From an uncultured Candidatus Saccharibacteria bacterium (lineage in GTDB: Bacteria > Patescibacteriota > Minisyncoccia > Phycocordibacterales > JAACPR01), in assembly GCA_964538855.1 (NCBI GenBank), contig CAZIEY010000002.1, positions 219,007 through 253,462 on the forward strand: 34,456 nucleotides of DNA, written 5' to 3'. Of this stretch, positions 1 to 17,525 are shown in pieces. Both the position numbers and the translations under genes were made by a program. Within the stretch, counting starts at the first letter, position 1. Every line of letters begins with the position of its first letter. The notes under the pieces were generated by a model. The model saw nothing but the letters and a program-made list of their open reading frames with translations, had not been told where the DNA came from and did no database searches.

Positions 1-15
1 ATAAACTAATCAATA

Positions 16-1134: not shown

Positions 1135-1142
1135 TGTAAAAT

Positions 1143-2965: not shown

Positions 2966-2969
2966 AATA

Positions 2970-3923: not shown

Positions 3924-5089
3924 AAATCTTTAGTGAGGACAGACCAAGGTTCAAATTCTTTAGCAGAATATTTGGATAGAGTGTCTGTGTACAAATTTAT
4001 ATACTGAGGAACTAACACGTCCCAATCAAAAAGCTCTGCGTGTTTATACCCACCGTGAATAAGTTTCTGTTTCAAATCCTTATTATTAAGCACACGCTTC
4101 ATCACCTCAGCCAACTCATTAACATCACCACAATTGAACAATATCCCACTATAACCATCAATAACATACTCTGGTATCCCTCCGACATTACTTGCAATAA
4201 CAAGGCATCCCGCAGCCTGTGCTTCGATATTTACCAAACCACCGCCCTCTGAAATAGAGGGTACTACTGTAAATTCAGCACCCTTGAGAAGAGCGATTCC
4301 TTCTGACAAAGTTATTGTACCTACAAAACTGACACGATGTTCAAGTCCAAGCTTCTGTACTAATTGTAGCAAATTACCCTTCTCTTCTCCATCTCCCGCA
4401 ATAACTAAATGTAACTTTGGGAAGATATCTTTTATTAAATTAAAAGATTTAATTAGTACATCAATGCCTTTCGAGGGGTCTAATCGTCTAAAAGCAAAGA
4501 TATAGCTTTCAGAAAAGTTTTTAGGTGAAATCTTTTTAATTTCAGATACGTTTATACCAGCATACAATGTTCCAATATTACCTACCTCTGGAAGTAATAA
4601 CTGTAAATGGTTAGATAGAAAATTTGAAACTGAATTAATACAATCTGCTTGTTTTATAGAATCGGGAACAAATTCTACACCCTGGTTCCAAATTAATCCT
4701 GGGTTTGGATCTACAGGATCAGGAATATCCCCTCCAGCAATTGTCATAATTACAGGTACACCCCATTTTCGAGCTAACATCAGGCCAATGAGTGGTAATG
4801 GGCGTCTAACACCCACTACATGTATAACATCTGAGTGTAGATCCAATTCTATTTTTTTTATAGTTTCAATAAGATCACTGAATTCGGTTTCCGTTTTTGC
4901 ACTTGGTACTCTATACACAGAAACACCTTCAATAACCTCAAATGGGGTTAATGTGGAGGGCCACTGTTTAGTGATTATAGAGACTTTGAATCCCAACTTA
5001 ATATAGCGCCTAGACAATTCAGTCACCATTGTTTCTATACCGCCAACATGCGGTGTATATAACGAAGTAATAAAAAGTATTTTTTTCAT
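3902..5089 (-). CDS. GT4-family glycosyltransferase
   Basis: The N-terminus TSLYTPHVGGIETMV and the C-terminal SEGGGLVNIEAQAAGCLVIASNVGGIPEYV (E-x7-E motif) are typical of GT4/GT-B retaining transferases. Confidence 0.85.
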   Translation of the reverse strand: MKKILFITSLYTPHVGGIETMVTELSRRYIKLGFKVSIITKQWPSTLTPFEVIEGVSVYRVPSAKTETEFSDLIETIKKIELDLHSDVIHVVGVRRPLPLIGLMLARKWGVPVIMTIAGGDIPDPVDPNPGLIWNQGVEFVPDSIKQADCINSVSNFLSNHLQLLLPEVGNIGTLYAGINVSEIKKISPKNFSESYIFAFRRLDPSKGIDVLIKSFNLIKDIFPKLHLVIAGDGEEKGNLLQLVQKLGLEHRVSFVGTITLSEGIALLKGAEFTVVPSISEGGGLVNIEAQAAGCLVIASNVGGIPEYVIDGYSGILFNCGDVNELAEVMKRVLNNKDLKQKLIHGGYKHAELFDWDVLVPQYINLYTDTLSKYSAKEFEPWSVLTKDLWLKLIS

Positions 5090-5799
5090 GACTTCTTTAT
5101 CTTATATAAAATCTGACCATCTAACGGATTATTGGAAATTCTGCCCGTAGCATAATTTACGTATTTCTTTTCAACAATGACCAAATTCGAATCTCTGATA
5201 ATTGAATCGAGCTCAAAAGGATTAAATATGTGCACCATAGTTTCTAATTTAGATTCTTCATGTTTAATACTCAAAGGGAAATCTCCGTTTGTGTCTTTTT
5301 TGATAAACACATCCTTTAAAAAGTTTTTAAATACGTTTTTTAAGCCATACTGAGATACATTATATCGATTGTTAACATCGATAAATGCATACCCATCATT
5401 ATCTAATAGCTCAGAAATATGAGACATCACAGACACGCGTTTTGCGTGTGTAGTAACATGTCCCAACACATTCCACAAACATAAGATTAAATCAAATTTA
5501 CCGTCAATAAATTTTTTACCTGAAATATCCGCAATTATAGTTTTAAAGTTATTATTACTATCTAATTGTTCAAGCATATAAGGGCTATTATCAACGAGTA
5601 CAACTTCCCTAATATTCATCTTTGTAGCGATATTACGCGTACGTGATCCAGTACCGGCCCCCAAATCTAATATATTTTTTGGTTTGACTTTAGTTTGTAA
5701 TATAAAAGTATTAATAGATTCAATATATTGTTGTCTTGTCTTAGAATATGAATCGTATTGTTCAGAAAAGCGATCGTAAAAGATATTTGATGAGAGCAT
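5086..5799 (-). CDS. Class I SAM-dependent methyltransferase
   Basis: ILDLGAGTGSRT (motif I) followed by VLVDNSPYM (acidic motif II). There is a 4-nt overlap with the downstream GT4 gene. Confidence 0.8.
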   Translation of the reverse strand: MLSSNIFYDRFSEQYDSYSKTRQQYIESINTFILQTKVKPKNILDLGAGTGSRTRNIATKMNIREVVLVDNSPYMLEQLDSNNNFKTIIADISGKKFIDGKFDLILCLWNVLGHVTTHAKRVSVMSHISELLDNDGYAFIDVNNRYNVSQYGLKNVFKNFLKDVFIKKDTNGDFPLSIKHEESKLETMVHIFNPFELDSIIRDSNLVIVEKKYVNYATGRISNNPLDGQILYKIKKS

Positions 5800-5802
5800 A
5801 TT

Positions 5803-6903
5803 TTATTGTGTTAAAAATTCTCTAATACAATCTGATACATATTTAATTTCCTCTTCAGTTAAATCATTGAACATTGGTAACGCAAGTAAACGGTCAGACG
5901 CATCTTCCGTAACAGGAAATCGATCTTTGCAGAATGAATACATGGGAAATTGAGTTATTGATGGAAAATAGTTTTTACTAACCTCAACACCCTTTTGTTT
6001 TAAAAAATCATGGACAGAATCTCTCGTTATTTTATCTTTAAACAAAACAAAATAGATAAACCAACTTCTTTCGAATTCTGACATTTGTTGGGGCAGTTTA
6101 ATATCTTTGATATCAGACAAATACTTTTTATATAAATCAGATGATTTATTTCTACTACTCAAAATAGCATCAACTCTCTTGAGTTGTTCACGCCCAAAAG
6201 CAGCTTGAATTTCAGTCATTCTAAAATTAAAGCCAAGTGTAACTTTTTTTAACCAATTTTCTCCAGATGCTCTACCCTGATCTCTCATTGATCTGCAACG
6301 TGTTGCCAAATCAACATCATCAGTCACAATCATACCCCCCTCACCAGCTGTAGTTATCTGCTTATTTTCATGAAATCCATATACACTTAAATCACCTAGT
6401 TGAGAGACAGGAAATCTCGCAGAAGGAGTACCAATAGCTTCGCAAGAGTCTTCGATGATTTTTAGTCCATATCGGTCTTTAATTTCTTTAATCTTTTCAT
6501 AATTAACAGGTAAACCCAAAATGTGCACTAACATAATTCCCTTTGTTTTGGGTCCTATTTTTGACTCAATTAAAGACGGGTCGATATTTAAAGTGTTTGG
6601 GTCAATATCAACAAAAACAGGAGTTACGTTTTCAAATAATAATGCATTTGAAGATGCGATATAACTAAATGGCGTGGTAATTACTTCATCTCCTTTGCCC
6701 CAACCCAAAAGACGAACAGCTAAATGGAGTCCGCTAGTTCCACTATTAACTGATATTGCATACTTTTTATTAACATATTGTGCAAATTCATTTTCAAATT
6801 TTTCTACCTCAGAACCACGACTCAATTTCTTAGACTGCAAAACTCTTTGGATTGCATCTATTTCTGTTTGTGTAATATCTGCTTTATAGAGAGGTATCTT
6901 CAT
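5803..6903 (-). CDS. DegT/DnrJ/EryC1/StrS-family PLP-dependent sugar aminotransferase
   Basis: NSGTSGLHLA and SVYGFHENKQITTAGEGGMIVT (PLP-lysine context SxxxxK...GEGG). The length of 366 aa is typical for the family. Confidence 0.9.
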   Translation of the reverse strand: MKIPLYKADITQTEIDAIQRVLQSKKLSRGSEVEKFENEFAQYVNKKYAISVNSGTSGLHLAVRLLGWGKGDEVITTPFSYIASSNALLFENVTPVFVDIDPNTLNIDPSLIESKIGPKTKGIMLVHILGLPVNYEKIKEIKDRYGLKIIEDSCEAIGTPSARFPVSQLGDLSVYGFHENKQITTAGEGGMIVTDDVDLATRCRSMRDQGRASGENWLKKVTLGFNFRMTEIQAAFGREQLKRVDAILSSRNKSSDLYKKYLSDIKDIKLPQQMSEFERSWFIYFVLFKDKITRDSVHDFLKQKGVEVSKNYFPSITQFPMYSFCKDRFPVTEDASDRLLALPMFNDLTEEEIKYVSDCIREFLTQ

Positions 6904-6908
6904 GAATT

Positions 6909-7436
6909 TTACGAAAACATATCATTAATTATTTTACACGCTTCCTCCAATGTATCAACTCTTAAATGAGAGTGGTAATTCAACCAATAATCTTTACTGT
7001 GAGCATTACCAAATATAATAATCGGTTTATTATTTTGATGTGCATAAAAAACCTCCATTGCAGTGCCAATCATACTTGCTTCGGAATATGTATCATTCAC
7101 CAAAAGAACATCACAATAATAGACGTCGTTCAAATCACGGATGACTGCGGCACGCGGATCAGTGAAAACTTCTTTTTCTTCTCTACCCCTTAACGCGTGT
7201 AGCACATTGAATTTGGATGATAAAAGTTCAACTGCCAGATTTCTCCACCCCAAAGAGTCGGCTCTAGACAACCCCCTAATCGGCCCACTTAAAAATACTG
7301 TTTTTGTTTTATTCACAATAATTTGATTTAACCATAAAAACCGTGTCTGAGCAAGAATATAACGCAATTTTCTAACGAATATCCTGCGATACTTTTCTAG
7401 TCCTGCATAGCTTAGCAATTCCCTGTTCTCTGTCAT
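6909..7436 (-). CDS. Nucleoside 2-deoxyribosyltransferase-like (NDT/Rcl/BlsM-MilB superfamily) protein
   Basis: VFLSGPIRG (N-terminal nucleotide-binding strand) and SMIGTAMEVFYAHQNNKPIIIF (GT-x-x-E-x-G/x-x-A...KP catalytic-Glu motif). The start is uncertain: the ATG at 7436 leaves only 10 nt before the divergent recombinase gene, and an internal GTG (VNKTKTVFLSGP) is possible. Confidence 0.55.
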   Translation of the reverse strand: MTENRELLSYAGLEKYRRIFVRKLRYILAQTRFLWLNQIIVNKTKTVFLSGPIRGLSRADSLGWRNLAVELLSSKFNVLHALRGREEKEVFTDPRAAVIRDLNDVYYCDVLLVNDTYSEASMIGTAMEVFYAHQNNKPIIIFGNAHSKDYWLNYHSHLRVDTLEEACKIINDMFS

Positions 7437-7446
7437 TAATTAGTAC

Positions 7447-8730
7447 ATGACTAATACGGAACAAGACCAAATGAAATATTGCTTATATGCTCGTAAATCA
7501 ACTGAAGCAGAAGAGAAACAAGCCCTTTCAATTGATTCTCAAATCAAGGAAATGAAGCAGATTGCCGAGCGTGAGAACTTAACTATAGTTGAGATACGTA
7601 AGGAATCACACTCTGCAAAAGAGTCTGGGCAAAGACCGGTATTTGAGGAAATTGTAAAAGATATCGATACTGGTATATTCAATGGAATTATTACATGGGC
7701 ACCTGATAGACTTTCCAGAAATGCAGGTGATCTTGGAAAGCTTGTAGATAGAATGGATCAAAGAAAGCTAATTCAGATCAAAACTTTTGGTCAAACATTC
7801 ACCAATTCACCAAGTGATAAATTTTTGTTGATGATTTTATGTTCTCAAGCAAAACTAGAGAATGACAACAAAAGTATCAACGTAAAGCGTGGTATGAGAA
7901 CTCGTTGTGAAATGGGTTTATGGCCTGCACAACCTCCTACAGGTTATAGAAAAGTAAATGACAGAACTGCAAGGTGCGAAGTTGAGATTGATCCCGAACG
8001 AGCTGATACTATACGGCAGATATTCGAGAAAATTAGTTATGAAAAATGGAGTGTATCAAAGGTGCATGCGTGGCTACGATATGATCTAAATTTCAAGACA
8101 CACAGAGGATTTCACTTGAGTATCGGTAATGTATTCAAAATAATCAATAATACTTTTTATTACGGTCGCTTTGAATTTCCTCAAGGTGCTGGTATTTGGT
8201 ATGAGGGAAAACATAAACCAATTATCTCTAAGGAACTGTTTGACGAAACGCGAAACTCTATTAAGTCGCAAATGATAAAATCACGAGGTAAGGAATTTGC
8301 TTTTACTCGAATTATGAAATGTGGGGTGTGTGGATCAGGTATTACCGCTGACGAAAAGTTCAAGAAATTAGTGAGTGGCGGAGTTAATAGACATGTCTAT
8401 TATCGATGCACAAAAACGAAAGACAGGAATTGTAAAAATCCTGCACTGAATGAAACCGAACTTATCGAATCACTAATCGATATGGTCGATACTTTGGACA
8501 TAAACAAGGTAAAGCTCACTGCGAAACTTGATTTGGAAATCCAAAAGTTTAAGAAATTACAAGCAATGTTTATAGGAAAAAAGAAAACAGTAAAAATAGA
8601 ACCTATCGATCTCAGGGATTACACGAAGTTCGTATTAAGAGAAGGCGTGTCTTTAGAACAAAGATCTATTTTAGAATGTATTAGCAGTGAACTTATATTA
8701 AAGAATAGAGAAATTAAATTACTTAATTAA
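7447..8730 (+). CDS. Large serine recombinase (resolvase catalytic domain + recombinase domain + zinc ribbon)
   Basis: YCLYARKSTEAEEKQALSIDSQ (catalytic Ser region) and WAPDRLSRN. The recombinase-domain segment includes PTGYRK. The Zn ribbon reads CGVCGSGITADE...YYRCTK...C. An alternative start is at 7471 (MKYCLYARKS). Confidence 0.85.
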   Translation: MTNTEQDQMKYCLYARKSTEAEEKQALSIDSQIKEMKQIAERENLTIVEIRKESHSAKESGQRPVFEEIVKDIDTGIFNGIITWAPDRLSRNAGDLGKLVDRMDQRKLIQIKTFGQTFTNSPSDKFLLMILCSQAKLENDNKSINVKRGMRTRCEMGLWPAQPPTGYRKVNDRTARCEVEIDPERADTIRQIFEKISYEKWSVSKVHAWLRYDLNFKTHRGFHLSIGNVFKIINNTFYYGRFEFPQGAGIWYEGKHKPIISKELFDETRNSIKSQMIKSRGKEFAFTRIMKCGVCGSGITADEKFKKLVSGGVNRHVYYRCTKTKDRNCKNPALNETELIESLIDMVDTLDINKVKLTAKLDLEIQKFKKLQAMFIGKKKTVKIEPIDLRDYTKFVLREGVSLEQRSILECISSELILKNREIKLLN

Positions 8731-10498
8731 ATTCTGATTCATTTGAGATTATATGTTCAATAAGGTCAAATATTTTTTCAAAATCCTTAAAATCATCTTT
8801 TGTTCCATTTTGACAAATCCAATCACATAAATTACCCTTCTCATCTTTATTTATTTCCCATTTTTCAGGAATTGTAACATCCACCCCTCTTTCTATTTTT
8901 GTTATCGCACATGTAATATCAATATATGCTTTTTTATTTTCTATGGCTTTTTTCAAGAACGTTTTAGTAAATAAATTTTCAATTCCTTTTGTAACAACAT
9001 TATCTCTTACTGTTGGAATAACTCTTTTAAAGACTTTTCCAGTATTGCTATCTTGTTTATTAGTATCACAATCATATAGTAAGATTACTTTTTGGGGAAT
9101 TATTTCCGATAATCTTGTTTTATTATTGAAATTTCCCCAAATTTTATCCAAATTCCCATACCCAACAACATCACGAATTTCTATTTTTTCTAAAATTTCC
9201 GACTTACTTAGTAATTCACTTGCTTTTGTTATATATCTAATATCATAATCACCCTCAACAAATAGAATTGTTTTTGTTGATTTTGCAATTTGTTCTGTAA
9301 TTTCTTTCTCAAACTTTTCAGTTTCTTTCAAAACCTTGTAAGCATTTTCAAACTCAGAAAACCTTTCTGTTGTTATTAGTTCTCCCTTCGGCATATTTCT
9401 TACTTCGAATCCATTTTCCCCGAAAATCTTTCTCATTCCTAATAGAAACAATGGCGAGTGAGTAGTAATAATAAATTGAATCTTAGGAAATAACTGTACC
9501 AGTTCTGGTAATACTGAATTTTGTAAATCTGTATGCAAATGGACATCTATTTCGTCTATTGCGACTATTCCCTGAATTTGTTCTGTAGTTTTTGGTGGAT
9601 TATCACCATGACGAATAATATTTATAAAAAGATTTAAAAGTATAGATTCGCCCAAAGATAAGTTATCAATACTTGGAAGTAATTCTTGAATCCACTGACC
9701 TTTATCGTTTACTTCACCAATTGACACCCTATATCTTCCTCTTGGGCCAACTCCGAATCTGATGTTGTCTCTCTTTTTAATTTTCCTTAAAATGTTGTTT
9801 ATATTTTGCCACGTAATCCGATCTGTAATATTTTTAGGGTTATTTGTAAAATCCAAAACCAAATCCATTAAAAATGATTTGCTTTCTTGTGTTGATGAAA
9901 TTATTTCGATTTCTTTATTTAATCTTCCCGCAAACTTTTTTTTATCTTGAAATCTCGCGTAATCAACAAATGGTTCATTTTTCCAAAATGGCTCTTCATA
10001 CCTGTATGCCGGTTGATAGAAATGAACATTTTGAATCCACTCATCTTCTAAGTATTCTTTTCTCTCATCATCTATGTTTGTTATTTGTTTTTGGTTATCA
10101 TTTTTATCATTCGGAGATAATACAAAACCTTGAATAAGATTTGCAAAATCTTCCTTTTTTACTTTGCCAATTTTATCAAAATATTCTAAATCTTTATTTT
10201 TATGGTCAATAAACTTTAAAAGAGAAACCCCCTTATCTTTTCCTGTTTGTAAATTTATACCACCTGAAACTTTATAATATTTATACCCGAGTCCCTCCTT
10301 AACCTGAACATCATCAAAGAGTTTTCCTCCAATTTCATACAACCCATCGATAATCTGCGAATGTAAAATTGTCTTTCCGGATCCATTTTCTCCAACAAAT
10401 ATAATGGGTTTTGGATCACCATTTTCCTTAAAAGGTAATTCGATGGCGAGTTCTTCTATTGGTCCAATATTTTTGATTGCAATATTTTTTAAATACAT
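8723..10498 (-). CDS. OLD-family-like ABC-type ATPase with C-terminal TOPRIM-like domain
   Basis: Walker A is VGENGSGKT, the signature-like segment is LSLGES, Walker B is IVAIDEIDVHLH, and the H-loop is ITTHSP. The C-terminal ILFVEGDYDIRY (Glu motif) and LLYDCDTN (DxD) fit TOPRIM/DUF4435. The ORF track starts at a TTG at 10516, but the ATG at 10498 (MYLKNIAIKNIGPI) matches the usual N-terminus of this family. Confidence 0.7.
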   Translation of the reverse strand: MYLKNIAIKNIGPIEELAIELPFKENGDPKPIIFVGENGSGKTILHSQIIDGLYEIGGKLFDDVQVKEGLGYKYYKVSGGINLQTGKDKGVSLLKFIDHKNKDLEYFDKIGKVKKEDFANLIQGFVLSPNDKNDNQKQITNIDDERKEYLEDEWIQNVHFYQPAYRYEEPFWKNEPFVDYARFQDKKKFAGRLNKEIEIISSTQESKSFLMDLVLDFTNNPKNITDRITWQNINNILRKIKKRDNIRFGVGPRGRYRVSIGEVNDKGQWIQELLPSIDNLSLGESILLNLFINIIRHGDNPPKTTEQIQGIVAIDEIDVHLHTDLQNSVLPELVQLFPKIQFIITTHSPLFLLGMRKIFGENGFEVRNMPKGELITTERFSEFENAYKVLKETEKFEKEITEQIAKSTKTILFVEGDYDIRYITKASELLSKSEILEKIEIRDVVGYGNLDKIWGNFNNKTRLSEIIPQKVILLYDCDTNKQDSNTGKVFKRVIPTVRDNVVTKGIENLFTKTFLKKAIENKKAYIDITCAITKIERGVDVTIPEKWEINKDEKGNLCDWICQNGTKDDFKDFEKIFDLIEHIISNESEFN

Positions 10499-10613
10499 AA
10501 AATGAGCATACCACAACTAGCCAAAGTTTAATATCGCAAAAAAGGCAAACCAATCTGTTGCTATTCAATTCGTCAAACTAACCCTTCTCGAGTGCTCGAA
10601 CTAGCTCTCTAAA

Positions 10614-10688
10614 TGGTGACCCTACAGGGAATCGAACCCTGATTTAAGCCTTGAGAAGGCTCTGTCCTAGCCGTTAGACGATAGGGCC
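10614..10688 (-). tRNA. tRNA-Glu (anticodon CUC), CCA encoded
   Basis: The reverse complement reads GGCCCTA-TC-GTCT-AACGGCTA-GGAC-A-GAGCC-TTCTCAA-GGCTT-AAAT-CAGGG-TTCGATT-CCCTG-TAGGGTC-A-CCA. This is a full 75-nt cloverleaf with the GTTCGATTC T-loop and anticodon CTC. Confidence 0.9.
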
Positions 10689-10735
10689 ATGCTACGGGAA
10701 ATAATAGTACCATATTTTGTGGATTTGGGGAGAGA

Positions 10736-10788
10736 AAATAAAAAACCGTGATAGATGGCGTGCTAACGAATGCACGTGTATCTACCAC
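10736..10788 (-). terminator. Rho-independent terminator of the 320-nt RNA candidate
   Basis: Minus strand: GTGGTAGAT...(inner CGTGC/GCACG)...ATCTATCAC stem followed by GGTTTTTATTTT. Confidence 0.6.
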
Positions 10789-11058
10789 AGTTTCGAAAGG
10801 CCTCGGTTGGTACGTGGTTCCAATCGGGGAGTTAGTGGTGCTTTCGCGACGTAATCTCCCTGCAAGGATCTCTCCATAGTACCGTTCGCCACCTTGCCTT
10901 TCCTGGACCTTTTCTGGGGTATCTAATCCCAGATGGATGGTCTTGCAATGAAAGTAGGGACTTCGTGAATTGATAAGTTGCCTTTCCTAGAACGTTATCC
11001 GAAGACAACGACAGGGGGAAAGACACACTCAGAGCAACCTCACGTACTTTCATTTTCC
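10740..11058 (-). ncRNA. Unclassified structured RNA candidate (about 320 nt, promoter-to-terminator unit)
   Basis: The interval lies between murF and tRNA-Glu, and its only ORF is an implausible 73-aa one. On the minus strand it has a promoter (TTGACA-17 nt-TGcTAACGT) and a long terminator hairpin followed by a T-run. Internal helices include a 10-bp AATGAAAGTA/TACTTTCATT helix, a CGTTGTC-UUCG-GATAACG tetraloop hairpin and a GCGAAAGC GNRA hairpin. I could not match it to RNase P, tmRNA, SRP or 6S consensus motifs. Confidence 0.5.
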
Positions 11059-11065
11059 GAATATT

Positions 11066-11094
11066 ACGTTAGCATGACATCAATATAATGTCAA
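11066..11094 (-). promoter_or_regulatory. Sigma70-type promoter for the 320-nt RNA candidate
   Basis: Minus strand: TTGACA (11094-11089), a 17-nt spacer, then an extended -10 TGc-TAACGT (11074-11066). Confidence 0.4.
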
Positions 11095-11123
11095 GCATTA
11101 TTCATAAAAAACCTAAATCACCC

Positions 11124-12386
11124 TTATTTCAAGCCCTCAACCACCCTCTCCATCCCCATCGCGCGACTTCCCTTTATTAAAATGATGCTACCTTTGGTTT
11201 TCTTTTGTAATTTTTGAACTTCATCAATCGCATTTTCAGCAGATTTAAAACAGCGGATTTTTGATTTGTGCAATTTCGCAAGATGCGCCGCTTCTGCCAC
11301 TGCTTCTGCACGAATTCCAATCGTCACCAAATAATCAACCGGGATCTGACCAACAAGCGTACCGATTTTTTGATGCTCGCTATTAGAGAAGCGCCCTATT
11401 TCGAGCATGTCGCCGAGCACCGCAATTTTCAAACCTCGCGCCTCGACTTTTTTCAACGTCACAAGCGCCGCTTGCATCGACAATGGGGATGCATTATACG
11501 AATCATCAATAATCACCGAGCTGTTTCGCCCCTGCACAATATTCATGCGCCCAGGAGCCGGTCGATATGCCCTCATCGCAGCCACCGAATCAGTTGCTCG
11601 AATTCCGAGAGAAACCCCAGCAATCACGCTCGCGATTACCGCGTACGCATAATTATCACCAAGCACTCCGTTCATGCTGAATGGGATACTGTGACCTTCA
11701 AAATTTATCTTGAAATTCAAACCTGTCACCGGTCGATTCACATTTATTTCGTTATACACACAATGACTGTGAGTCGCCACAATATCGGCGCTATTGCGAA
11801 TTCCGTACGTATAAACTTTGCACATTGATTTCGCTTTCAATTTCATCACGTTCGCATCGTCAGCATTCAAAATAAGAGCGCCTCCACGTTCAATGTAATT
11901 AACAATCTTTGCCTTCTCGACCATGACTTGTTCTGGCGAATCAAAATTTTCAACATGCGCAGGAATTTCTCCGAAAGCAGTTACAATCGCAATGCGCGGT
12001 TTGAGCCAACCAGCAGCCGCATCCATATCACCCGGCTTGTCTACACCAATTTCAAGCACGAGCCATGTCGGATAATTCCGCCGAAAAATCGCCACAAAAC
12101 CAAGCCACACGATTTTCACCCACCCCTTTTTATCACTTTGCGCTGATTCGCATCCAATGATGGTGAGTGCCACACCCATCTCGCTATTATAGCTTTTAAT
12201 ATTTTTCCGGACAGAAAATCGCGTACCGAGAGCTTCTGCAACCATGTCTTTTGTCGTGGTCTTGCCCACCGTTCCAGTCACCGCTAAAATTTTTGGGCGA
12301 TGCACAAGAAGAATTATCCGCGCTTCGAGCTTGATGAGAAATGCGCAAAAAGTTTTTATGTAGTCTGTCAGGTGTTCGTATGTCAT
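11124..12386 (-). CDS. murF: UDP-N-acetylmuramoyl-tripeptide--D-alanyl-D-alanine ligase
   Basis: The Mur ligase P-loop is VTGTVGKTTTKDM. SYNSEMGV and DDSYNASP are also present. The gene sits at the end of the mraZ-rsmH-ftsL-ftsI cluster. Confidence 0.9.
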   Translation of the reverse strand: MTYEHLTDYIKTFCAFLIKLEARIILLVHRPKILAVTGTVGKTTTKDMVAEALGTRFSVRKNIKSYNSEMGVALTIIGCESAQSDKKGWVKIVWLGFVAIFRRNYPTWLVLEIGVDKPGDMDAAAGWLKPRIAIVTAFGEIPAHVENFDSPEQVMVEKAKIVNYIERGGALILNADDANVMKLKAKSMCKVYTYGIRNSADIVATHSHCVYNEINVNRPVTGLNFKINFEGHSIPFSMNGVLGDNYAYAVIASVIAGVSLGIRATDSVAAMRAYRPAPGRMNIVQGRNSSVIIDDSYNASPLSMQAALVTLKKVEARGLKIAVLGDMLEIGRFSNSEHQKIGTLVGQIPVDYLVTIGIRAEAVAEAAHLAKLHKSKIRCFKSAENAIDEVQKLQKKTKGSIILIKGSRAMGMERVVEGLK

Positions 12387-14125
12387 GGTTGTTTTGCTTT
12401 TTTGGCTTCTCGATCAGGCGGAATTTCGTAATAGTTTATGAGATATTTGGTGATATTCATAAAACTGTCAGTCAACGTATCAGACGCGAATGCATCCGTC
12501 TGTGGCTCTATTATATACAAAAATACGATAAATTGTGGGTCGAATGCGGGGAAATATCCGAAAAATGAGTGCAAAAATCGGTCATCATAATATCCGCGCG
12601 CGCTTTTGTTTGCGATTTGAGCGGTTCCTGTTTTTGCTGCGATGCTGTAATTTGGCATTGCGACACGCCCTCCACGCAAGGCGGTATCAACAACCTCGGT
12701 CAACATACGGGAAATTTCTTCCGAAGTCTCTTTCTTGAAAATTCGACGAGGTTCTGGAAAATCTACTTTTTTTGAAAAGCCTGACTGATATTCGATTTCG
12801 CGTACGAGATGTGGCGTGACGAGCAATCCCCCATTTCCGAGCGACGCAAGCGCAGTTGTCACCGCGATTGGTGAAAGCGCAATTCCTTGACCAAATGATG
12901 CGGTTGCATATTCAATATCACGCCCGCCCGTCAAATTGGCAATGAGCGACGCAGTTTCGTTCGGCAAATCAATTCCGGATTTTTCGCCAAACAGTCGGCG
13001 CATATAATCACCGAACACATCGTTACCAACCCGCGCCGCCACATTTGCCGCTCCAATATTCCACGAATTATTTAAAACTTGTTGCATCGTAGTAATTCCG
13101 TGCGCCTTTTTGTCGTGATTATAAAAAGTAAAACCGTTAAGCGTGACGGAACCTTTGTCGTCATACGTTGTGTGCGCGGTCACCTTGCCTTGGTCCAAAC
13201 CAATAGCCATCGTAATTGGTTTTATAATTGAACCCATTTCATACACACTTTCGACCAAATCATTCTGATACACGCTCGCGTCCGAAACCATATTAAAAGT
13301 ATTGATGTCAAAATTTGGTACGAGCGCCATCGCTGTGATTTCTCCGGTTTTCGGATCCATGATAATACCACCGACATTTTTGCCTCCGTACTTTTTAATG
13401 AGAACCGCAATTTCTGTTTCCAAAAACTGTTGCACTACTGGTTCAATAGTCAGGTGAAGCGATCCCTTTGCATCGGTAGGCTTTGCAACTGCGTCTTTGA
13501 TATTAGAGAAAATTTCCACGAAAAAGTTCGTGAAGAGATTTTCACTCGTTCGATCAAGTACTGATTCATATTGACGTTCTAAACCGTACTGCCCCTTTAA
13601 TTCGTTCTGATCGTTATATGCCATAAATCCGATGGTGTGTGCCGCCAAATCTGCGCCTGGATAAAATCGCCACTTCTCTTTAAAAAGGCTGACACCCTTC
13701 AACGACTTCTCCGTAATGGTATCTGCGGTTTCCTGACTGACACGTTTAGCAAGCTCTTCATACTGATCATTTTCTTTTTCAGCTTTATATAAAAATATTT
13801 CCGGATCAATTTCAATTTCGCTCGACAATACATTGAAAACATCTTCGGGAAATTCAATTAATTTTGGATTTAAAATAACTTTGTAACCAACCTTCAAAGT
13901 TGCCGCCGCAATCGCAGTACCATCTTTTGAAGTAAAATAAATTGAACCTCGGTCAAACACATCGGATTGTTTGCCATAATATTGATGGTCCGCGCGGTCG
14001 GTGTAATATTCGCGTTTCACCACCTGCACATAATAGAGACGCAATTCAATAATAAAAGCCACAAAAAGTACTGCAATGAGTACTGCGATTAACCTCCATT
14101 TTATCGTAATATTTTGCCTATTCAT
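12383..14125 (-). CDS. ftsI: Class B penicillin-binding protein / peptidoglycan D,D-transpeptidase
   Basis: The three transpeptidase motifs are SIIK (SxxK), SWN (SxN) and KTGT. An N-terminal TM segment is present. The gene lies in dcw-cluster context. I chose the start at 14125 (MNRQNITIKW), which overlaps the ftsL-like stop as ATGAATAG. The ORF track extends to 14179. Confidence 0.9.
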   Translation of the reverse strand: MNRQNITIKWRLIAVLIAVLFVAFIIELRLYYVQVVKREYYTDRADHQYYGKQSDVFDRGSIYFTSKDGTAIAAATLKVGYKVILNPKLIEFPEDVFNVLSSEIEIDPEIFLYKAEKENDQYEELAKRVSQETADTITEKSLKGVSLFKEKWRFYPGADLAAHTIGFMAYNDQNELKGQYGLERQYESVLDRTSENLFTNFFVEIFSNIKDAVAKPTDAKGSLHLTIEPVVQQFLETEIAVLIKKYGGKNVGGIIMDPKTGEITAMALVPNFDINTFNMVSDASVYQNDLVESVYEMGSIIKPITMAIGLDQGKVTAHTTYDDKGSVTLNGFTFYNHDKKAHGITTMQQVLNNSWNIGAANVAARVGNDVFGDYMRRLFGEKSGIDLPNETASLIANLTGGRDIEYATASFGQGIALSPIAVTTALASLGNGGLLVTPHLVREIEYQSGFSKKVDFPEPRRIFKKETSEEISRMLTEVVDTALRGGRVAMPNYSIAAKTGTAQIANKSARGYYDDRFLHSFFGYFPAFDPQFIVFLYIIEPQTDAFASDTLTDSFMNITKYLINYYEIPPDREAKKAKQP

Positions 14126-14435
14126 TAAATGACAATTTTGTGCTTCCGTTTCGTGAGACGAACACTTTCGAAGATTCATCGATGTGTACGAGTCCGAAAT
14201 CAGACGCCAAACTCTTGTCTATTGTGTCATTTTTTTCAATAAAAGAAAGCTCCAATTCGCCGATTCTGGATTGCATTTCCGCGATTTTATCCGACATTCG
14301 TTCCTGTGCAGCCGCATTAAACGCCGCGCTATTCACGAAATATAAATATGTGAATACAAGCATCACCGCAAGCGCGATGAGCATGTGCACAATTGTCTTA
14401 TTCGAGGAATTTATTTTGTTGATGATAAGGTTCAT
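14118..14435 (-). CDS. ftsL: FtsL-like cell-division membrane protein
   Basis: The 105-aa protein has a single N-terminal TM followed by a coiled-coil-like segment. It lies between rsmH and ftsI. The call is by position and architecture only. Confidence 0.55.
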   Translation of the reverse strand: MNLIINKINSSNKTIVHMLIALAVMLVFTYLYFVNSAAFNAAAQERMSDKIAEMQSRIGELELSFIEKNDTIDKSLASDFGLVHIDESSKVFVSRNGSTKLSFNE

Positions 14436-15884: not shown

Positions 15885-15937
15885 TTACCTACTATTCTAT
15901 CCCACAATAGTGCACTTACCTACAAAATTATCCACAT

Positions 15938-15974
15938 AAAAACACCCAGCATTTGCTGGGTGTTTTTGTGTTTT
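15938..15974. terminator. Bidirectional Rho-independent terminator
   Basis: AAAAA-CACCCAGC-ATTT-GCTGGGTG-TTTTTGTGTTTT. The 8-bp GC-rich stem is flanked by an A-run and a T-run. It lies 20 nt downstream of the 15994 stop on the minus strand. Confidence 0.7.
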
Positions 15975-15993
15975 ATTCTATGTAAATAATGCC

Positions 15994-16413
15994 TTAGGAC
16001 GCTGCAGTAACAGATCCAACATTGTCTTTAATTTTCCATGCGGAAATACCGTAAAAAATAATCAATTCAACGAGGTCCAAAAGTAGAGGCAATTCTCCAC
16101 CTAAAATATAATTTATTGATTCGACAATGATAATTAACGCCAAAAGATACGCTGAAGCAATCAAAGTAATTTTTCGTGCATCTCTGATTTCGTATGTCTG
16201 ATTAATTACATACGCAGAATATATGGTTACAACAATTGAAGCCAGTATATTAATAATGATATACACAAGCGAAACCATTTGAGACTCTGATTCGCTCAAT
16301 TCGAGTAATGCTGTTGGAAACATCACAATGAACATTACTAGGATGGACAATAAGACTGATCGTAAGAAATGAATAAATGAGATTCGTGCTGACGTTGATT
16401 GTTTCTTATTCAT
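15994..16413 (-). CDS. Hypothetical integral membrane protein (about 4 TM)
   Basis: The 139-aa ORF has four hydrophobic segments. It has its own promoter (TTGACT-17-TAAGAT) ending 6 nt before the ATG, and a terminator downstream. Confidence 0.6.
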   Translation of the reverse strand: MNKKQSTSARISFIHFLRSVLLSILVMFIVMFPTALLELSESESQMVSLVYIIINILASIVVTIYSAYVINQTYEIRDARKITLIASAYLLALIIIVESINYILGGELPLLLDLVELIIFYGISAWKIKDNVGSVTAAS

Positions 16414-16454
16414 AAATTCATCTTAAATTACTTTATAAACCTAGTCAATGAAAG

Positions 16455-16667
16455 TAAAATAAAAACAAGCACCGATTGGCGCTTGTCGAATGAGTATCCC
16501 GGAAGAGGGAGAAATTGGTGGCCGAAGCCTAAAGAACATGAAGTTTTAAAGTCGGGCGGCCATAGGCACTTGATCATGCCACGACTGGGAGCTGGCAAAT
16601 GCCTATCCCCTTTAAGAACGCCGACGTCAACCGGCTTCTATTCAAAGATTCGGATGAATCTAAGAAC
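16455..16667 (-). ncRNA. Unclassified small RNA candidate (about 213 nt, promoter-to-terminator unit)
   Basis: Minus strand: TTGCAT-16 nt-TATAAT promoter (16701-16674) and a strong terminator ACAAGCGCC-AATC-GGTGCTTGT-TTTTTATTTT (16486-16455). Internal stems are AGATTC-ATCC-GAATCT, ATAGGCAT/GTGCCTAT enclosing TGCCA/TGGCA, and a GGC-UUCG-GCC hairpin. No credible ORF is present. Confidence 0.45.
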
Positions 16668-16673
16668 TTTTAT

Positions 16674-16701
16674 ATTATACCCCATTTATAATATTATGCA
16701 A
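16674..16701 (-). promoter_or_regulatory. Near-consensus sigma70 promoter for the 213-nt RNA candidate
   Basis: Minus strand: TTGCAT (16701-16696), a 16-nt spacer, then TATAAT (16679-16674). Confidence 0.5.
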
Positions 16702-16789
16702 GTTACCCGTAATCCTTATACGAGTTTACAATTCCATACCCTATGCAATTATTGAATTGCATCCAGGCTATGAGTTAGAAAAATTTCAA

Positions 16790-16821
16790 ACAAAAAACAG
16801 CGCCGTCACGAATCGGCGCTG
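16790..16821 (-). terminator. Rho-independent terminator after the 68-aa ORF
   Basis: Minus strand: CAGCGCCG-ATTCGTGA-CGGCGCTG followed by TTTTTTG. It lies 25 nt after the stop at 16847. Confidence 0.7.
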
Positions 16822-16846
16822 TCGCAAATAGGATCGGGATCCAAAA

Positions 16847-17053
16847 TCATTCGTGAACAATTTTCATCGACACACAACCTCCCTCTCCGCGGTTCCCAGT
16901 GTGGAAGACAAATTGGGGACGGAAAGGTTTATACGCCGAACTTCCATCACAACGAGCTGAGGCAACGTGAGAAAATTGGGCGAAGGCATCTTCTGTCGGT
17001 AGGCTAAACGGCCTATCGATTTCACTAACGGTCTGTCCATCCTGATTAACCAT
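16847..17053 (-). CDS. Hypothetical small protein (68 aa)
   Basis: A GGAG Shine-Dalgarno sequence lies 7 nt upstream of the ATG (AGAGGAGAGACTCATCATG). A terminator follows immediately downstream. I recognise no family. Confidence 0.5.
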   Translation of the reverse strand: MVNQDGQTVSEIDRPFSLPTEDAFAQFSHVASARCDGSSAYKPFRPQFVFHTGNRGEGGCVSMKIVHE

Positions 17054-17198
17054 GATGAGTCTCTCCTCTGTGAAGAACTTTCCGGGAAAAAATTTCTCGG
17101 ATTATTTTTAGACTACACCCTTCTTTGGCTTTAGGCAAGAAACGAACCCCCGGCCAGCTCTCGTGCTGACGCGGGGGTCTGAGTGCGGTAGGAAACAC

Positions 17199-17432
17199 TC
17201 AGTCAGAGATCATAGCCAAAATGAGAAGGAGCATGGACAGATCCAGAGTGTGATACCGCGGTCGCAAAGACTTGAATTTGAGACGGAGGATCATCCGAAG
17301 CCCTACCGCGACACCACTCGCCACCCACAAAACGTAGGCAAGTTTTTCGATATGGTACAATCGAGTAATCATTGCCAACACAACGAGAAAAAAATAACCC
17401 TCGGTGTATTTATACAACGATTCAATAGACAT
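17199..17432 (-). CDS. Hypothetical small membrane protein (77 aa from the internal ATG)
   Basis: The start at 17432 (MSIESLYKY) is preceded by GGGAG. Two to three hydrophobic segments are present. A TTGACG-16-TAATCT promoter sits right after the lysS stop. An ACCCCCG...CGGGGGT hairpin with a T-rich tail lies downstream. Confidence 0.45.
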   Translation of the reverse strand: MSIESLYKYTEGYFFLVVLAMITRLYHIEKLAYVLWVASGVAVGLRMILRLKFKSLRPRYHTLDLSMLLLILAMISD

Positions 17433-17525
17433 GGAATACTCCCGGTTTTCGGTTTGCAGACACAATGAGGCAGGGTGCCCCATTTTCCACAATTCAGATT
17501 ACTCTTTTTTAAAAAGTCGTCAACC

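What the first reader, a model, noticed from the sequence alone, without database searches (positions are those of the whole stretch)
10740..11058. About 320-nt promoter-to-terminator structured RNA between murF and tRNA-Glu that fits no family I can recognise
The 435-nt gap between murF and tRNA-Glu has only an implausible 73-aa ORF, yet it has its own TTGACA-17-TGcTAACGT promoter and a long terminator. Between them lie many stable helices. A roughly 110-nt irregular hairpin is closed by a perfect 10-bp AATGAAAGTA/TACTTTCATT stem and capped by a UUCG tetraloop. There is also a GNRA (GCGAAAGC) hairpin and a UCUGGG/CCCAGA hairpin. The size and the location next to a tRNA suggest a housekeeping RNA (rnpB or ssrA). 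However, I could not find the universal RNase P elements (GGAAAGUCC and ACAGAA..GGCUUA in the right topology), a tmRNA tRNA-like end or tag frame, or the SRP domain IV motif. It is either a very divergent housekeeping RNA or a new class.
Basis: seen in the sequence. Interest (0 to 1): 0.7.

Follow-up and report, generated by a model that had tools for sequence, protein, structure and literature searches.

The report
Type-variable orphan RNA gene beside tRNA-Glu
Between murF and tRNA-Glu of an uncultured Patescibacteria (CPR) bacterium lies a separately transcribed, non-coding, folded RNA of about 320 nt that matches no known RNA family. It is not a housekeeping RNA but an accessory cassette that occurs in a few very different, swapped versions in one small group of relatives.

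Summary
On the minus strand, 11094->10738, there is a TTGACA-17-TGcTAACGT promoter, a ~320-nt non-coding stretch and a long two-part terminator, followed by tRNA-Glu(CTC), which appears to have its own promoter.

No Rfam 15 family matches, even at E<=10. The 73-aa ORF is not coding.

Relatives change the interpretation. In most Paceibacteria sampled, murF abuts tRNA-Glu. Only in the window's genus-level clade does this gap hold cassettes, including this RNA ("RNA-A").

RNA-A comes in about four discrete types:
- Within a type it is better conserved than the flanking genes: 94% against 80-82%.
- Between types it is at random-level identity, although murF DNA is 87-93% identical.
- Modules are shuffled between types.

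A ~110-nt 5' hairpin is present in every type and shows compensatory changes. Two types carry a hairpin whose 9-nt loop equals the 16S rRNA 790 loop; that similarity is only marginally significant.

Verdict: a real, new, clade-restricted structured RNA family, accessory and horizontally exchanged, not a divergent RNase P, tmRNA, SRP or 6S RNA. I infer a stable trans-acting binding or decoy RNA, but the function is not shown. The data are thin: about 5 variants and no expression data.

The parts
11066..11094 (-). Promoter: -35 TTGACA (11094-11089), 17-nt spacer, extended -10 TGc-TAACGT (11074-11066). The expected start is about 11059-11057.
   Evidence: Read directly; pattern match. A perfect TTGACA with a 16-17-nt spacer stands at the same place before the RNA-A homologues in L004, L005 and L008. 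L029 has TTGACC there. The promoter scanner did not call it because the -10 matches only 3 of 6.
10738..11059 (-). RNA-A transcript, about 320 nt, from the inferred start to the U-run.
   Evidence: MFE -112.2 kcal/mol, z = -4.6. No Rfam match. Homologues are L021, L004/L022, L005/L006, L008/L009 and L029/L030.
10947..11054 (-). H1: a 108-nt irregular hairpin closed by the perfect 10-bp stem AAUGAAAGUA/UACUUUCAUU and capped by a UUCG tetraloop (11003-11000).
   Evidence: (I3). A hairpin of 107-118 nt lies at the same distance from the start in all four types. Window against L029: 37 pairs, all paired in both, 6 changed on both sides, against 0-1 when the partner is slid. The test using single-sequence MFE gives P = 0.011-0.025.
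10913..10933 (-). Hairpin UCUGGG-AUUAGAUAC-CCCAGA. GGAUUAGAUACCC is identical to E. coli 16S rRNA 785-797 (helix 24, the '790 loop').
   Evidence: exact 13-mer, score 26, against shuffles with a 95th percentile of 25 and a maximum of 29, so marginal. The same 9-nt loop on a different stem (CUGG/CUGG) is in L029/L030, and the loop is also in L021.
10894..10912 (-). Second copy of a 19-nt internal repeat (..AGGAAAGGCAA). The first copy, 10978-10996, is the 3' strand of H1. The second copy contains GAAAGGC (10902-10896), which can pair with GCCUUUC (10801-10795).
   Evidence: D1, 84% identity. The pairing is in the MFE structure. Between the window and L021 one of these pairs changes C-G to U-A (read). 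An alternative register, AAAGGUCY with RGRCCUUU, fits equally well, so this helix is tentative.
10827..10866 (-). 3'-domain hairpin: GGGAG/CUCCC, extended by UYG/CGA, enclosing the GCGAAAGC mini-hairpin and a conserved CUAAC segment.
   Evidence: Alignment A6. G-C changes to A-U in L008a. Helix 1 has 8 pairs, 2 of them changed on both sides.
10792..10798 (-). Conserved UUUCGAA just before the terminator. UUCGAA is self-complementary.
   Evidence: TCGAA is invariant in the five sequences of A6, which cover three of the four types. TTTCGA is the corresponding block in L029 in the R1 alignment.
10738..10794 (-). Two-part intrinsic terminator: an outer 15-bp stem, an inner CGUGC/GCACG stem, then a U-run. 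Its sequence is conserved across types.
   Evidence: terminator helices 3-4 have 18 pairs, 2 of them changed on both sides. The terminator scanner missed it, probably because of its shape.
11104..11113 (-). GGTTTTTTAT, a 10-nt perfect direct repeat of the terminator tail at 10747-10738. The two copies bracket the 366-bp cassette.
   Evidence: D2. It may be a junction of insertion or recombination. It was not shown to be more than chance.
10614..10688 (-). tRNA-Glu(CTC), the conserved neighbour. An extended -10 (TGgTACTAT) lies about 20 nt upstream, and the CCA end is encoded.
   Evidence: The same tRNA follows murF in all relatives that reach that far.

Best explanation
The unit is a real, independently transcribed, non-coding RNA gene. 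I call it RNA-A. It belongs to a small family found only in one genus-level clade of Paceibacteria (Patescibacteria/CPR).

It is an accessory cassette, not a core gene. It was inserted into the ancestrally tight murF|tRNA-Glu junction. In this clade that junction is a hot spot for self-contained cassettes, each with a TTGACA promoter and a terminator.

Shown from sequence:
- Layout: a sigma-70-type promoter, a short leader, a ~110-nt irregular hairpin (H1), one to three short hairpins, a multi-helix 3' domain, a UUUCGAA block, and a long two-part terminator hairpin.
- Discrete types: each is highly conserved within itself, unalignable to the others, mosaic in its modules, and distributed against the phylogeny of the flanking genes. 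This implies horizontal exchange.

Inferred:
- The long 3' hairpin and H1 make a stable RNA that acts in trans.
- It works as a binding or decoy RNA for a type-specific partner (a protein or another RNA), using exposed conserved loops: the 16S-790-like AUUAGAUAC loop in two types, the CUAAC segment and UUUCGAA.
- It probably acts in a conflict or compatibility setting, such as defence, immunity or partner specificity, rather than in core RNA metabolism.

My confidence is about 0.7 that it is a functional ncRNA gene, about 0.85 that it is accessory rather than housekeeping, and about 0.3 for the binding/decoy mechanism. The figure given is a blend.
For: A non-coding transcription unit:
- Promoter and terminator are read and conserved in relatives.
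- The ORF shows no coding signature.
- No hydrophobic mini-ORF is shared between types.

Structure:
- z = -4.6 for the window, -5.2, -5.0 and -3.5 for the units in L004, L005 and L013.
- H1 is present in all types and has 6 of 37 pairs changed on both sides, against 0-1 in slid controls.
- The 3' domain has 28 pairs, 97% paired, 5 changed on both sides against 0-1.

No known family: Rfam 15 at E<=10.

Insertion and hot spot:
- murF is 33-127 nt from tRNA-Glu in L010, L024 and L026-28.
- Cassettes of ORF133/159, S-box+sat-cysC, RNA-A and RNA-B occupy the gap in the window's clade.

Discrete types:
- L005 against L008: murF 81.7% nt (third codon positions 63.5%), sat-cysC 79.9%, but RNA-A 94%, with 92-98% in 60-nt windows.
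- L008 against L029: murF 92.7%, sat-cysC 90.9%, RNA-A 46%.
- Window against L004: murF 86.5%, RNA 5' part 47.6%, against a shuffled mean of 47.9%.

Mosaic modules:
- H1 of the window resembles that of L029.
- The 3' domain of the window resembles that of L005 and L008a.
- The 790-like loop is shared by the window and L029.
- Covariance model R1, built without L029, finds L029/L030 at E about 0.009.
Against: - There are no expression data, so the transcript, its ends and its stability are inferred.
- Only about 5 non-redundant variants from one clade exist. Covariation rests on pairs of sequences and on structures predicted from those same sequences.
- Tested against single-sequence MFE structures, support is modest for H1 (P = 0.011-0.025) and not significant for L005 to L008a (P = 0.35) or window to L021 (P = 0.47). 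The reverse comparison, L008a to L005, is borderline (P = 0.05).
- Without the terminator the fold is only z = -2.2.
- High identity within a type could reflect recent transfer rather than purifying selection.
- No partner is known. No complementarity longer than 11 nt exists elsewhere in the window.
- The 16S-loop similarity is only marginally above chance and is absent from two of the four types.
Confidence: 0.5

Rival explanations
1. It is a very divergent housekeeping RNA: RNase P RNA, tmRNA, SRP RNA or 6S RNA. CPR versions of these escape the standard models.
For: - The size is right (290-390 nt), it stands alone with its own promoter and terminator, and it lies next to a tRNA gene.
- CPR RNase P RNAs are known to be diverged. 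Some were found only with RF00010 at a threshold of 5 bits (PMC8172020, read).
- A short hairpin is followed by GGAAAG(G/U)C, which pairs with a downstream segment. This loosely recalls P3, J3/4 and P4 of RNase P.
Against: - On a 701-nt query at E<=10, where matches as weak as 8 bits were listed, there was no match to any RNase P, tmRNA, SRP or 6S model. The same holds for relatives. ARAGORN finds no tmRNA.
- Only 65-94 nt lie between the two strands of the P4-like helix. RNase P needs about 250 nt there. No ACAGAA or other conserved-region motifs were found by eye in the right order.
- The RNA is missing from the junction in L023 and in more distant relatives.
- It is at random identity between strains with 87-93% identical murF.
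Confidence: 0.05
2. It is functionless DNA: a decaying remnant of an inserted element or pseudogene that kept a promoter and a terminator and folds well by chance.
For: - It sits in a variable hot spot next to a low-GC island.
- It is absent from some close relatives.
- There is no similarity between types.
- The fold without the terminator is only z = -2.2.
- A 10-nt direct repeat brackets the cassette.
Against: - Within a type the RNA is the best-conserved stretch of the locus: 92-98% against 63-88% in the adjoining coding sequence. Third codon positions are only 58-64% identical.
- H1 keeps its position and size in all types and shows compensatory changes.
- The promoter -35 hexamer and the terminator are kept in every type.
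- No ORF remnant is shared.
Confidence: 0.17
3. It is the RNA part of a two-component conflict system, such as an RNA antitoxin or regulator of a neighbouring protein (ORF133/159) or of the PtuA-like ATPase downstream.
For: - In L004/L022 and L021 the order is RNA-A, terminator, ORF133. That is the general layout of type III toxin-antitoxin loci.
- The RNA shows type polymorphism and horizontal exchange.
- A PtuA-like ATPase lies just after the tRNA (PADLOC 3.6e-32).
Against: - ORF133 has its own TTGACA promoter.
- The window, L005, L008 and L029 have RNA-A without ORF133. L023 has ORF159 without RNA-A.
- The RNA has no tandem repeats of the ToxI kind. The only internal repeat found is a single 19-nt pair.
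- The ATPase is not next to RNA-A in any relative.
- No reverse transcriptase is in the window.
Confidence: 0.1
4. It is a cis-acting element, for example a conditional terminator or leader that controls read-through into tRNA-Glu, or an insulator between the dcw operon and the tRNA.
For: - It lies directly upstream of the tRNA.
- The paired repeats CUUUCC, GGAAAG, GGAAAG and CCUUUC allow alternative pairings, as in attenuators.
Against: - The tRNA appears to have its own extended -10 promoter. That stretch is 93-95% identical in L004 and L005, and a similar motif precedes the tRNA in L013.
- In L004, L021 and L022 the RNA is followed by ORF133, not by the tRNA. In L008 it is followed by another RNA-like unit.
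- It has its own promoter.
- There is no T-box or riboswitch match.
Confidence: 0.06
5. It encodes the 73-aa protein (11053-10832).
For: The ORF exists with an ATG start. BLASTP aligns it weakly to an ORF in L029: 34% over 38 aa.
Against: - Amino-acid identity (34%) is well below nucleotide identity over the same hairpin (about two thirds).
- Substitutions fall 14/12/14 on codon positions 1/2/3, and 1-nt and 2-nt gaps break the frame.
- L021 has a 1-nt deletion inside the ORF.
- The L029 ORF starts with TTG at the third base of the extracted unit, at or before the inferred start.
- No ORF is shared with L004 or L005.
Confidence: 0.02

Closest known systems
Orphan structured bacterial RNAs that lie beside tRNA genes in variable regions (ROOL RF03087, GOLLD RF01998)
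   Same: They are stand-alone, promoter-to-terminator folded RNAs of unknown function, often next to tRNA genes and in variable or mobile regions. That description of ROOL and GOLLD is from my own knowledge.
   Different: No match to either model at E<=5-10. RNA-A is smaller (290-390 nt against about 580-800). There is no prophage context, and nothing turned up in viral, phage or plasmid collections. Its range is far narrower, and it occurs in discrete types rather than with one conserved core.
Bacterial RNase P RNA, including the diverged CPR forms (PMC8172020)
   Same: The size is similar, it lies near a tRNA, and a hairpin is followed by GGAAAG(G/U)C that pairs with a distant segment.
   Different: There is no Rfam signal, the P4 topology is wrong, there is too little sequence between the strands, no conserved regions I-V were found by eye, and it is not conserved between close relatives.
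6S RNA
   Same: It is stand-alone with a sigma-70-type promoter, has an irregular rod-like hairpin, and shows low sequence conservation.
   Different: H1 is only about 110 nt and has no large central bubble; its largest internal loop is 6x5 nt. A separate 3' domain follows. There is no RF00013 match. It is an accessory gene.
rRNA-mimicking RNA elements, such as ribosomal-protein leaders
   Same: A hairpin presents a loop identical to the 16S helix-24 790 loop on a G-C-closed stem.
   Different: It is not upstream of a ribosomal-protein gene and is a free-standing transcript. The similarity is marginal statistically and is present in only two of the four types.
RNA antitoxins of type III (and type I) toxin-antitoxin loci
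   Same: The order RNA, terminator, ORF occurs in some relatives. The RNA is strongly type-specific and patchily distributed.
   Different: It has no tandem repeat units. The ORF has its own promoter and is not always present. There is no shared small hydrophobic ORF.

Membership tests
Bacterial RNase P RNA (RF00010/RF00011) | Match to the covariance model. Diverged CPR forms still score at least 5 bits with RF00010 (PMC8172020). | tested here: not met
   No RNase P match at E<=10 on 701 nt, where matches down to 8 bits were listed. None in L004, L005, L008, L013 or L029.
Bacterial RNase P RNA (RF00010/RF00011) | P4 pseudoknot: GGAAAGUCC after P3, pairing with ..ACAGAA-CCGGCUUA just before the 3' strand of P1, with about 250 nt (P5-P18) in between. 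| tested here: not met
   Read by eye. GGAAAGGC (window) or GGAAAGUC (L029) pairs with a segment only 65-94 nt away. No ACAGAA precedes it. It is followed by the terminator, not by a P1 strand.
Bacterial RNase P RNA (RF00010/RF00011) | An essential single-copy gene, conserved among close relatives. | tested here: not met
   Random-level identity between strains with 87-93% identical murF. Absent from the junction in L023. Whole genomes could not be searched.
tmRNA | A tRNA-like acceptor and T-arm formed by the two ends, and a tag reading frame. | tested here: not met
   ARAGORN finds tRNAs only. No tmRNA-clan match at E<=10.
SRP RNA (4.5S or large type) | The domain IV motif: a GNRA-capped helix 8 with the conserved symmetric and asymmetric loops. 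| tested here: not met
   No RF00169 or RF01854 match at E<=10. The H1 apex is UUCG with pyrimidine-rich internal loops.
6S RNA | A rod of about 180 nt whose ends pair and which has a large central bubble; it binds the sigma-70 holoenzyme. | tested here: not met
   No RF00013 match. The ends do not pair and there is no large bubble in the MFE or centroid structures. Binding is not testable with these tools.
T-box leader or riboswitch | A conserved aptamer or T-box sequence and a terminator/antiterminator placed ahead of the regulated gene. | tested here: not met
   No Rfam match. The same scan does find the SAM-I riboswitch in relatives. The downstream tRNA appears to have its own promoter.
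Type III toxin-antitoxin RNA | Tandem repeats of the antitoxin unit, then a terminator, then a co-transcribed toxin gene that is always linked. | tested here: not met
   The only internal repeat is one 19-nt pair. ORF133 is absent from the window, L005, L008 and L029, and it has its own promoter.
Retron ncRNA (with PtuA-type effector) | A neighbouring reverse transcriptase gene, and an msr-msd RNA with flanking inverted repeats. | tested here: not met
   No RVT domain in the 20 window ORFs scanned with Pfam. No retron RNA match. The PtuA-like ATPase is not linked to RNA-A in relatives.
ROOL / GOLLD | Match to RF03087 or RF01998. | tested here: not met
   No match at E<=5-10.
RNA-A (the family proposed here) | TTGACA promoter; a ~110-nt 5' hairpin starting about 10 nt after the transcription start; a UUUCGA(A) block; a two-part terminator with inner stem CGUGCA/UGCACG. 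| tested here: met
   Present in the window, L004/L022, L005/L006, L008/L009 and L029/L030 (L029/L030 have TTGACC as the -35). L021, which is cut off at its 5' end, shows the 3' features.

The most novel reading that the evidence does not exclude
RNA-A, and the related ~500-580-nt RNA-B found in relatives, may be a new kind of type-polymorphic, horizontally exchanged structured RNA in CPR bacteria. It would act in a conflict or compatibility system. One example is a decoy that presents rRNA-like loops, such as the 16S 790 loop, to a ribosome-binding or rRNA-targeting factor of a phage, a host or a rival strain. Discrete types would then be kept by diversifying selection, much as for immunity proteins.
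Probability: 0.1. Interest if true: 0.8.

Novelty: categorically new. Interest (0 to 1): 0.5.

Why it matters
CPR/Patescibacteria are a large, uncultured part of bacterial diversity with tiny genomes. Few RNAs specific to them are known to me, and my literature searches found none like this one.

An RNA gene that is more conserved than its protein-coding neighbours within a type, unalignable between types, mosaic in its modules, and swapped between near-identical strains is unusual for a bacterial non-coding RNA. That pattern is typical of specificity or immunity determinants.

If it is real, it gives a handle on RNA-based interactions in episymbiotic bacteria. It also gives a concrete locus, the murF|tRNA-Glu hot spot, at which to look for more such RNAs.

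"Categorically new" here means that no known family or class fits. It does not mean that a new mechanism has been shown.

Tried and rejected
- **Rfam 15:** searched at gathering scores and at E<=5-10 on the window and on relatives. Only tRNA and, in relatives, SAM-I matched.
- **Genome collection via MurF:** only two distant loci came back, one a Saccharibacteria genome with murF-tRNA-Glu synteny but no RNA.
- **Metagenome scan with the terminator pattern:** one true hit, L021.
- **Viral-contig scans:** the terminator pattern gave only chance hits inside coding sequence. The H1 and 3'-domain patterns gave none.
- **Phage and plasmid BLASTN:** no match.
- **A 'P1' helix** between the 5' end and CCGAUU: dropped. 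The 5' strand lies at or before the likely transcription start, and the alignment-based fold pairs CGA locally instead.
- **A scrambled 16S relic:** only the 790-loop 13-mer reaches the top 5% of shuffles. The other 16S and 23S similarities are at chance level and are not collinear.
- **A transposon-like element:** the 18-nt inverted repeat between promoter and terminator (I1) is not seen in the L004 promoter and terminator sequences (read).
- **A type I toxin mRNA:** no shared hydrophobic small ORF.
- **An antisense regulator of a gene in the window:** no complementarity longer than 11 nt.
- **Extending the family to L013 and L008b:** covariance model R1 and nhmmer find nothing there. They remain positional analogues only.
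- **Literature searches** for CPR ncRNAs or 790-loop mimics: nothing relevant apart from the diverged CPR RNase P RNAs.
Full report
**What is there.** The feature is on the minus strand. murF (12386-11124; TIGR01143, 2.6e-72) ends the cluster mraZ-rsmH-(ftsL)-ftsI-murF. tRNA-Glu(CTC) is at 10688-10614. The 435-nt gap between them holds these parts:
- TTGACA (11094-11089), a 17-nt spacer and TGc-TAACGT (11074-11066).
- About 320 nt with no credible ORF.
- A two-part hairpin of 15+5 bp followed by U6 (about 10794-10740).

The tRNA then follows, preceded by what looks like its own extended -10 (TGgTACTAT).

- The perfect 10-bp stem closes a 108-nt irregular hairpin, H1 (11054-10947), with a UUCG cap.
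- UCUGGG/CCCAGA is at 10933-10913.
- GCGAAAGC is at 10847-10840.

The whole unit folds with z = -4.6. Without the terminator z is -2.2, and the antisense strand gives -1.4. Thermodynamics alone is therefore only moderately persuasive.

**Not a known family, not coding.**
- Rfam 15 gives only the tRNA, at gathering scores and at E<=10 on a 701-nt query. That second scan listed matches as weak as 8 bits.
- ARAGORN finds no tmRNA.
- The 73-aa ORF is not coding. Against the homologous hairpin of L029, substitutions fall 14/12/14 on codon positions 1/2/3, and 1-nt and 2-nt gaps break the frame.
- The near-identical copy in L021 has a 1-nt deletion inside the ORF.
- No ORF is shared with the other types, and there is no shared hydrophobic mini-ORF.

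**Organism and locus history.** MurF homologues place the window in Patescibacteria, class Paceibacteria. In relatives with 47-52% identical MurF, and in a Saccharibacteria genome, murF is followed by tRNA-Glu(CTC). The gap is 33-127 nt in L010, L024 and L026-28. In the Saccharibacteria locus (L001) an ORF on the opposite strand fills a ~480-nt gap. Variable cargo comes after the tRNA, for example a diversity-generating retroelement in L026/L027.

Only in the window's own clade (MurF 73-92% identical: P0001-P0004) is the murF|tRNA-Glu junction filled. The fillers are self-contained cassettes, each with a TTGACA promoter and a terminator:
- **RNA-A**, the finding.
- **An orphan ORF** of 133-159 aa: L004, L021, L022, L023.
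- **A SAM-I riboswitch plus sat-cysC**: L005, L008, L029.
- **A second RNA, 'RNA-B'**, about 500-580 nt: L008, L029.

L023 has the ORF only and no RNA-A. L013 (MurF 51%) has an unrelated ~300-nt promoter-to-terminator unit at the same position. In the window, everything 3' of the tRNA (1-10600) is 30-37% GC against 40-49% for the rest. That stretch carries a PtuA-like ATPase, a serine recombinase and sugar-modification genes.

**The RNA-A family.** Homologues are:

| Locus | Position |
|---|---|
| L021 (partial) | 1-188 |
| L004 (= L022) | 4393-4785 |
| L005 (= L006) | 6085-6370 |
| L008 (= L009) | 6716-7002 |
| L029 (about the same as L030) | 6674-7041 |

They share these features:
- The promoter.
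- A 107-118-nt hairpin starting about 10 nt after the expected transcription start.
- A UUUCGA(A) block.
- A two-part terminator with the inner stem CGUGCA/UGCACG.

A covariance model of the 3' domain, built without L029, finds L029 and L030 at E about 0.009. It finds nothing else in 139 kb of loci or elsewhere in the window.

**Evidence for structure.**
- H1, window against L029: 37 pairs, all paired in both sequences, 6 changed on both sides, 13 changed on one side, none broken. Slid controls give 0-1.
- When the MFE of one sequence alone is used as the structure, fewer pairs are broken than expected (P = 0.011-0.025).
- 3' domain, five sequences: 28 pairs, 97% paired, 5 changed on both sides against 0-1 in slid controls.
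- The closest pairs are less informative: L005 to L008a gives P = 0.35, the reverse direction 0.05, and window to L021 0.47.

This supports a conserved fold in H1, the 3' hairpin and the terminator. The long-range helix GAAAGGC/GCCUUUC remains tentative, because an alternative register fits the window/L021 differences equally well.

**The unexpected part: discrete, swapped types.**

| Pair | murF nt identity | sat-cysC | RNA-A |
|---|---|---|---|
| L005 vs L008 | 81.7% (third positions 63.5%) | 79.9% | 94% (92-98% in 60-nt windows) |
| L008 vs L029 | 92.7% | 90.9% | 46% (chance level) |
| window vs L004 | 86.5% | not applicable | 5' two-thirds 47.6% (shuffled mean 47.9%) |

RNA-A is the best-conserved stretch of the locus between L005 and L008. 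The types are also mosaic:
- H1 of the window resembles that of L029.
- The 3' domain of the window resembles that of L005 and L008.
- A CCAUCC hairpin is shared by L004 and L029.
- The AUUAGAUAC hairpin is shared by the window, L021 and L029.

The distribution of types therefore contradicts the phylogeny of the flanking genes. RNA-A is exchanged horizontally, and either purifying selection or recent transfer keeps each type intact. This pattern does not fit an essential housekeeping RNA. It resembles that of specificity or immunity determinants.

**The 16S-like loop.** GGAUUAGAUACCC (10929-10917) equals E. coli 16S 785-797. The 9-nt loop and its G-C closure match helix 24, the 790 loop. L029 has the same loop on a different stem. 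The local-alignment score (26) lies only at about the 95th-97th percentile of shuffles. Two types lack the hairpin. The other resemblances to rRNA are at chance level. I treat this as a lead for a decoy or mimic function, not as a finding.

**Interpretation.**
- Shown: a conserved, non-coding promoter-to-terminator cassette; a conserved 5' hairpin and 3' domain; no known family; accessory status; discrete exchanged types.
- Inferred: a stable trans-acting RNA that binds a type-specific partner through exposed conserved loops, probably in a conflict or compatibility role.

The rivals are scored in their own section: a divergent housekeeping RNA, functionless remnant DNA, part of a toxin-antitoxin or defence pair, a cis-regulator of the tRNA, and a small protein.

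**Limits.**
- There are about five non-redundant variants from one clade.
- There are no expression data.
- I had no access to whole genomes to confirm canonical rnpB, ssrA, ffs or ssrS elsewhere.

Noticed in passing
window 1-10600: Everything 3' of tRNA-Glu is low in GC (30-37% against 40-49% for the rest of the window). It carries a PtuA-like (Septu-type) ATPase at 10516-8723(-), a convergent large serine recombinase at 7447-8730(+), and sugar-modification genes (aminotransferase, glycosyltransferase, methyltransferase, epimerase). It is probably an island acquired at the tRNA. No repeat of the tRNA's 3' end was found in 5500-10720.
   Followed up: partly
L008 4322-4900; L029 4288-4790: A second promoter-to-terminator RNA ('RNA-B', about 500-580 nt) lies between murF and the S-box leader. 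It has long near-identical blocks (for example GUAGUCCCAACGGCGGnUUGCGGCUGAAGGGGUUCAA) separated by variable hairpins. 16 pairs are changed on both sides, and overall identity is 58.5% while murF is 92.7% identical. There is no Rfam match. It shares a GAUACC...AAAGG motif with RNA-A.
   Followed up: partly
L013 5322-5625: A relative with 51% identical MurF has an unrelated ~300-nt unit at the same place, between murF and tRNA-Glu. It has TTGACA-17-TAATCT, a fold with z = -3.5 and a terminator. It has no Rfam match and is not found by model R1.
   Followed up: partly
L008 7030-7266: A further promoter-like site and RNA-like stretch follows RNA-A in tandem and is cut off by the end of the contig. 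It contains GAUACCCC and GUUCGAAAC. It is not recognised by nhmmer or by R1.
   Followed up: no
L004 4894-5295; L021 315-~716 (start read, end by length); L022 557-1000; L023 1989-2468: An orphan protein of 133-159 aa with its own TTGACA promoter and terminator occupies the same hot spot. It has no Pfam hit on record and only 3 clusters in the 5.8-billion-protein database. The L023 protein looks related by eye only; this was not tested.
   Followed up: partly
L005 4334-4428; L008 4960-5054; L029 4846-4940: A SAM-I (S-box) riboswitch above Rfam's gathering score lies in front of a bifunctional sulfate adenylyltransferase/APS kinase gene that has been inserted between murF and tRNA-Glu.
   Followed up: yes
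L026 4443-6100; L027 5726-7305: In a more distant relative, a diversity-generating retroelement (RVT_1 reverse transcriptase plus bAvd) lies just after tRNA-Glu. This shows that the tRNA's 3' side is also a variable site.
   Followed up: no
L013 8214-8326: A near-threshold match to LOOT RNA (RF03000): 44.5 bits against a gathering score of 46.4, E = 2.3e-5.
   Followed up: no
window 10738-10747 and 11104-11113; 10894-10912 and 10978-10996: A perfect 10-nt direct repeat (GGTTTTTTAT on the RNA strand) brackets the 366-bp cassette. A 19-nt internal repeat (84% identity) duplicates the 3' strand of H1 downstream. This gives four mutually complementary CUUUCC/GGAAAG elements that could form alternative pairings.
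   Followed up: partly
window 11124-14179: The cell-wall cluster runs ftsI directly into murF with no murE between them. MurF is short (420 aa), and its first ~100 residues are not covered by the best-scoring stretch of the TIGR01143 match.
   Followed up: no
window 15907-17526: A 1.6-kb stretch between mraZ and lysS has only short ORFs (139 aa or less). It has no Rfam match at gathering scores and was not examined further.
   Followed up: no
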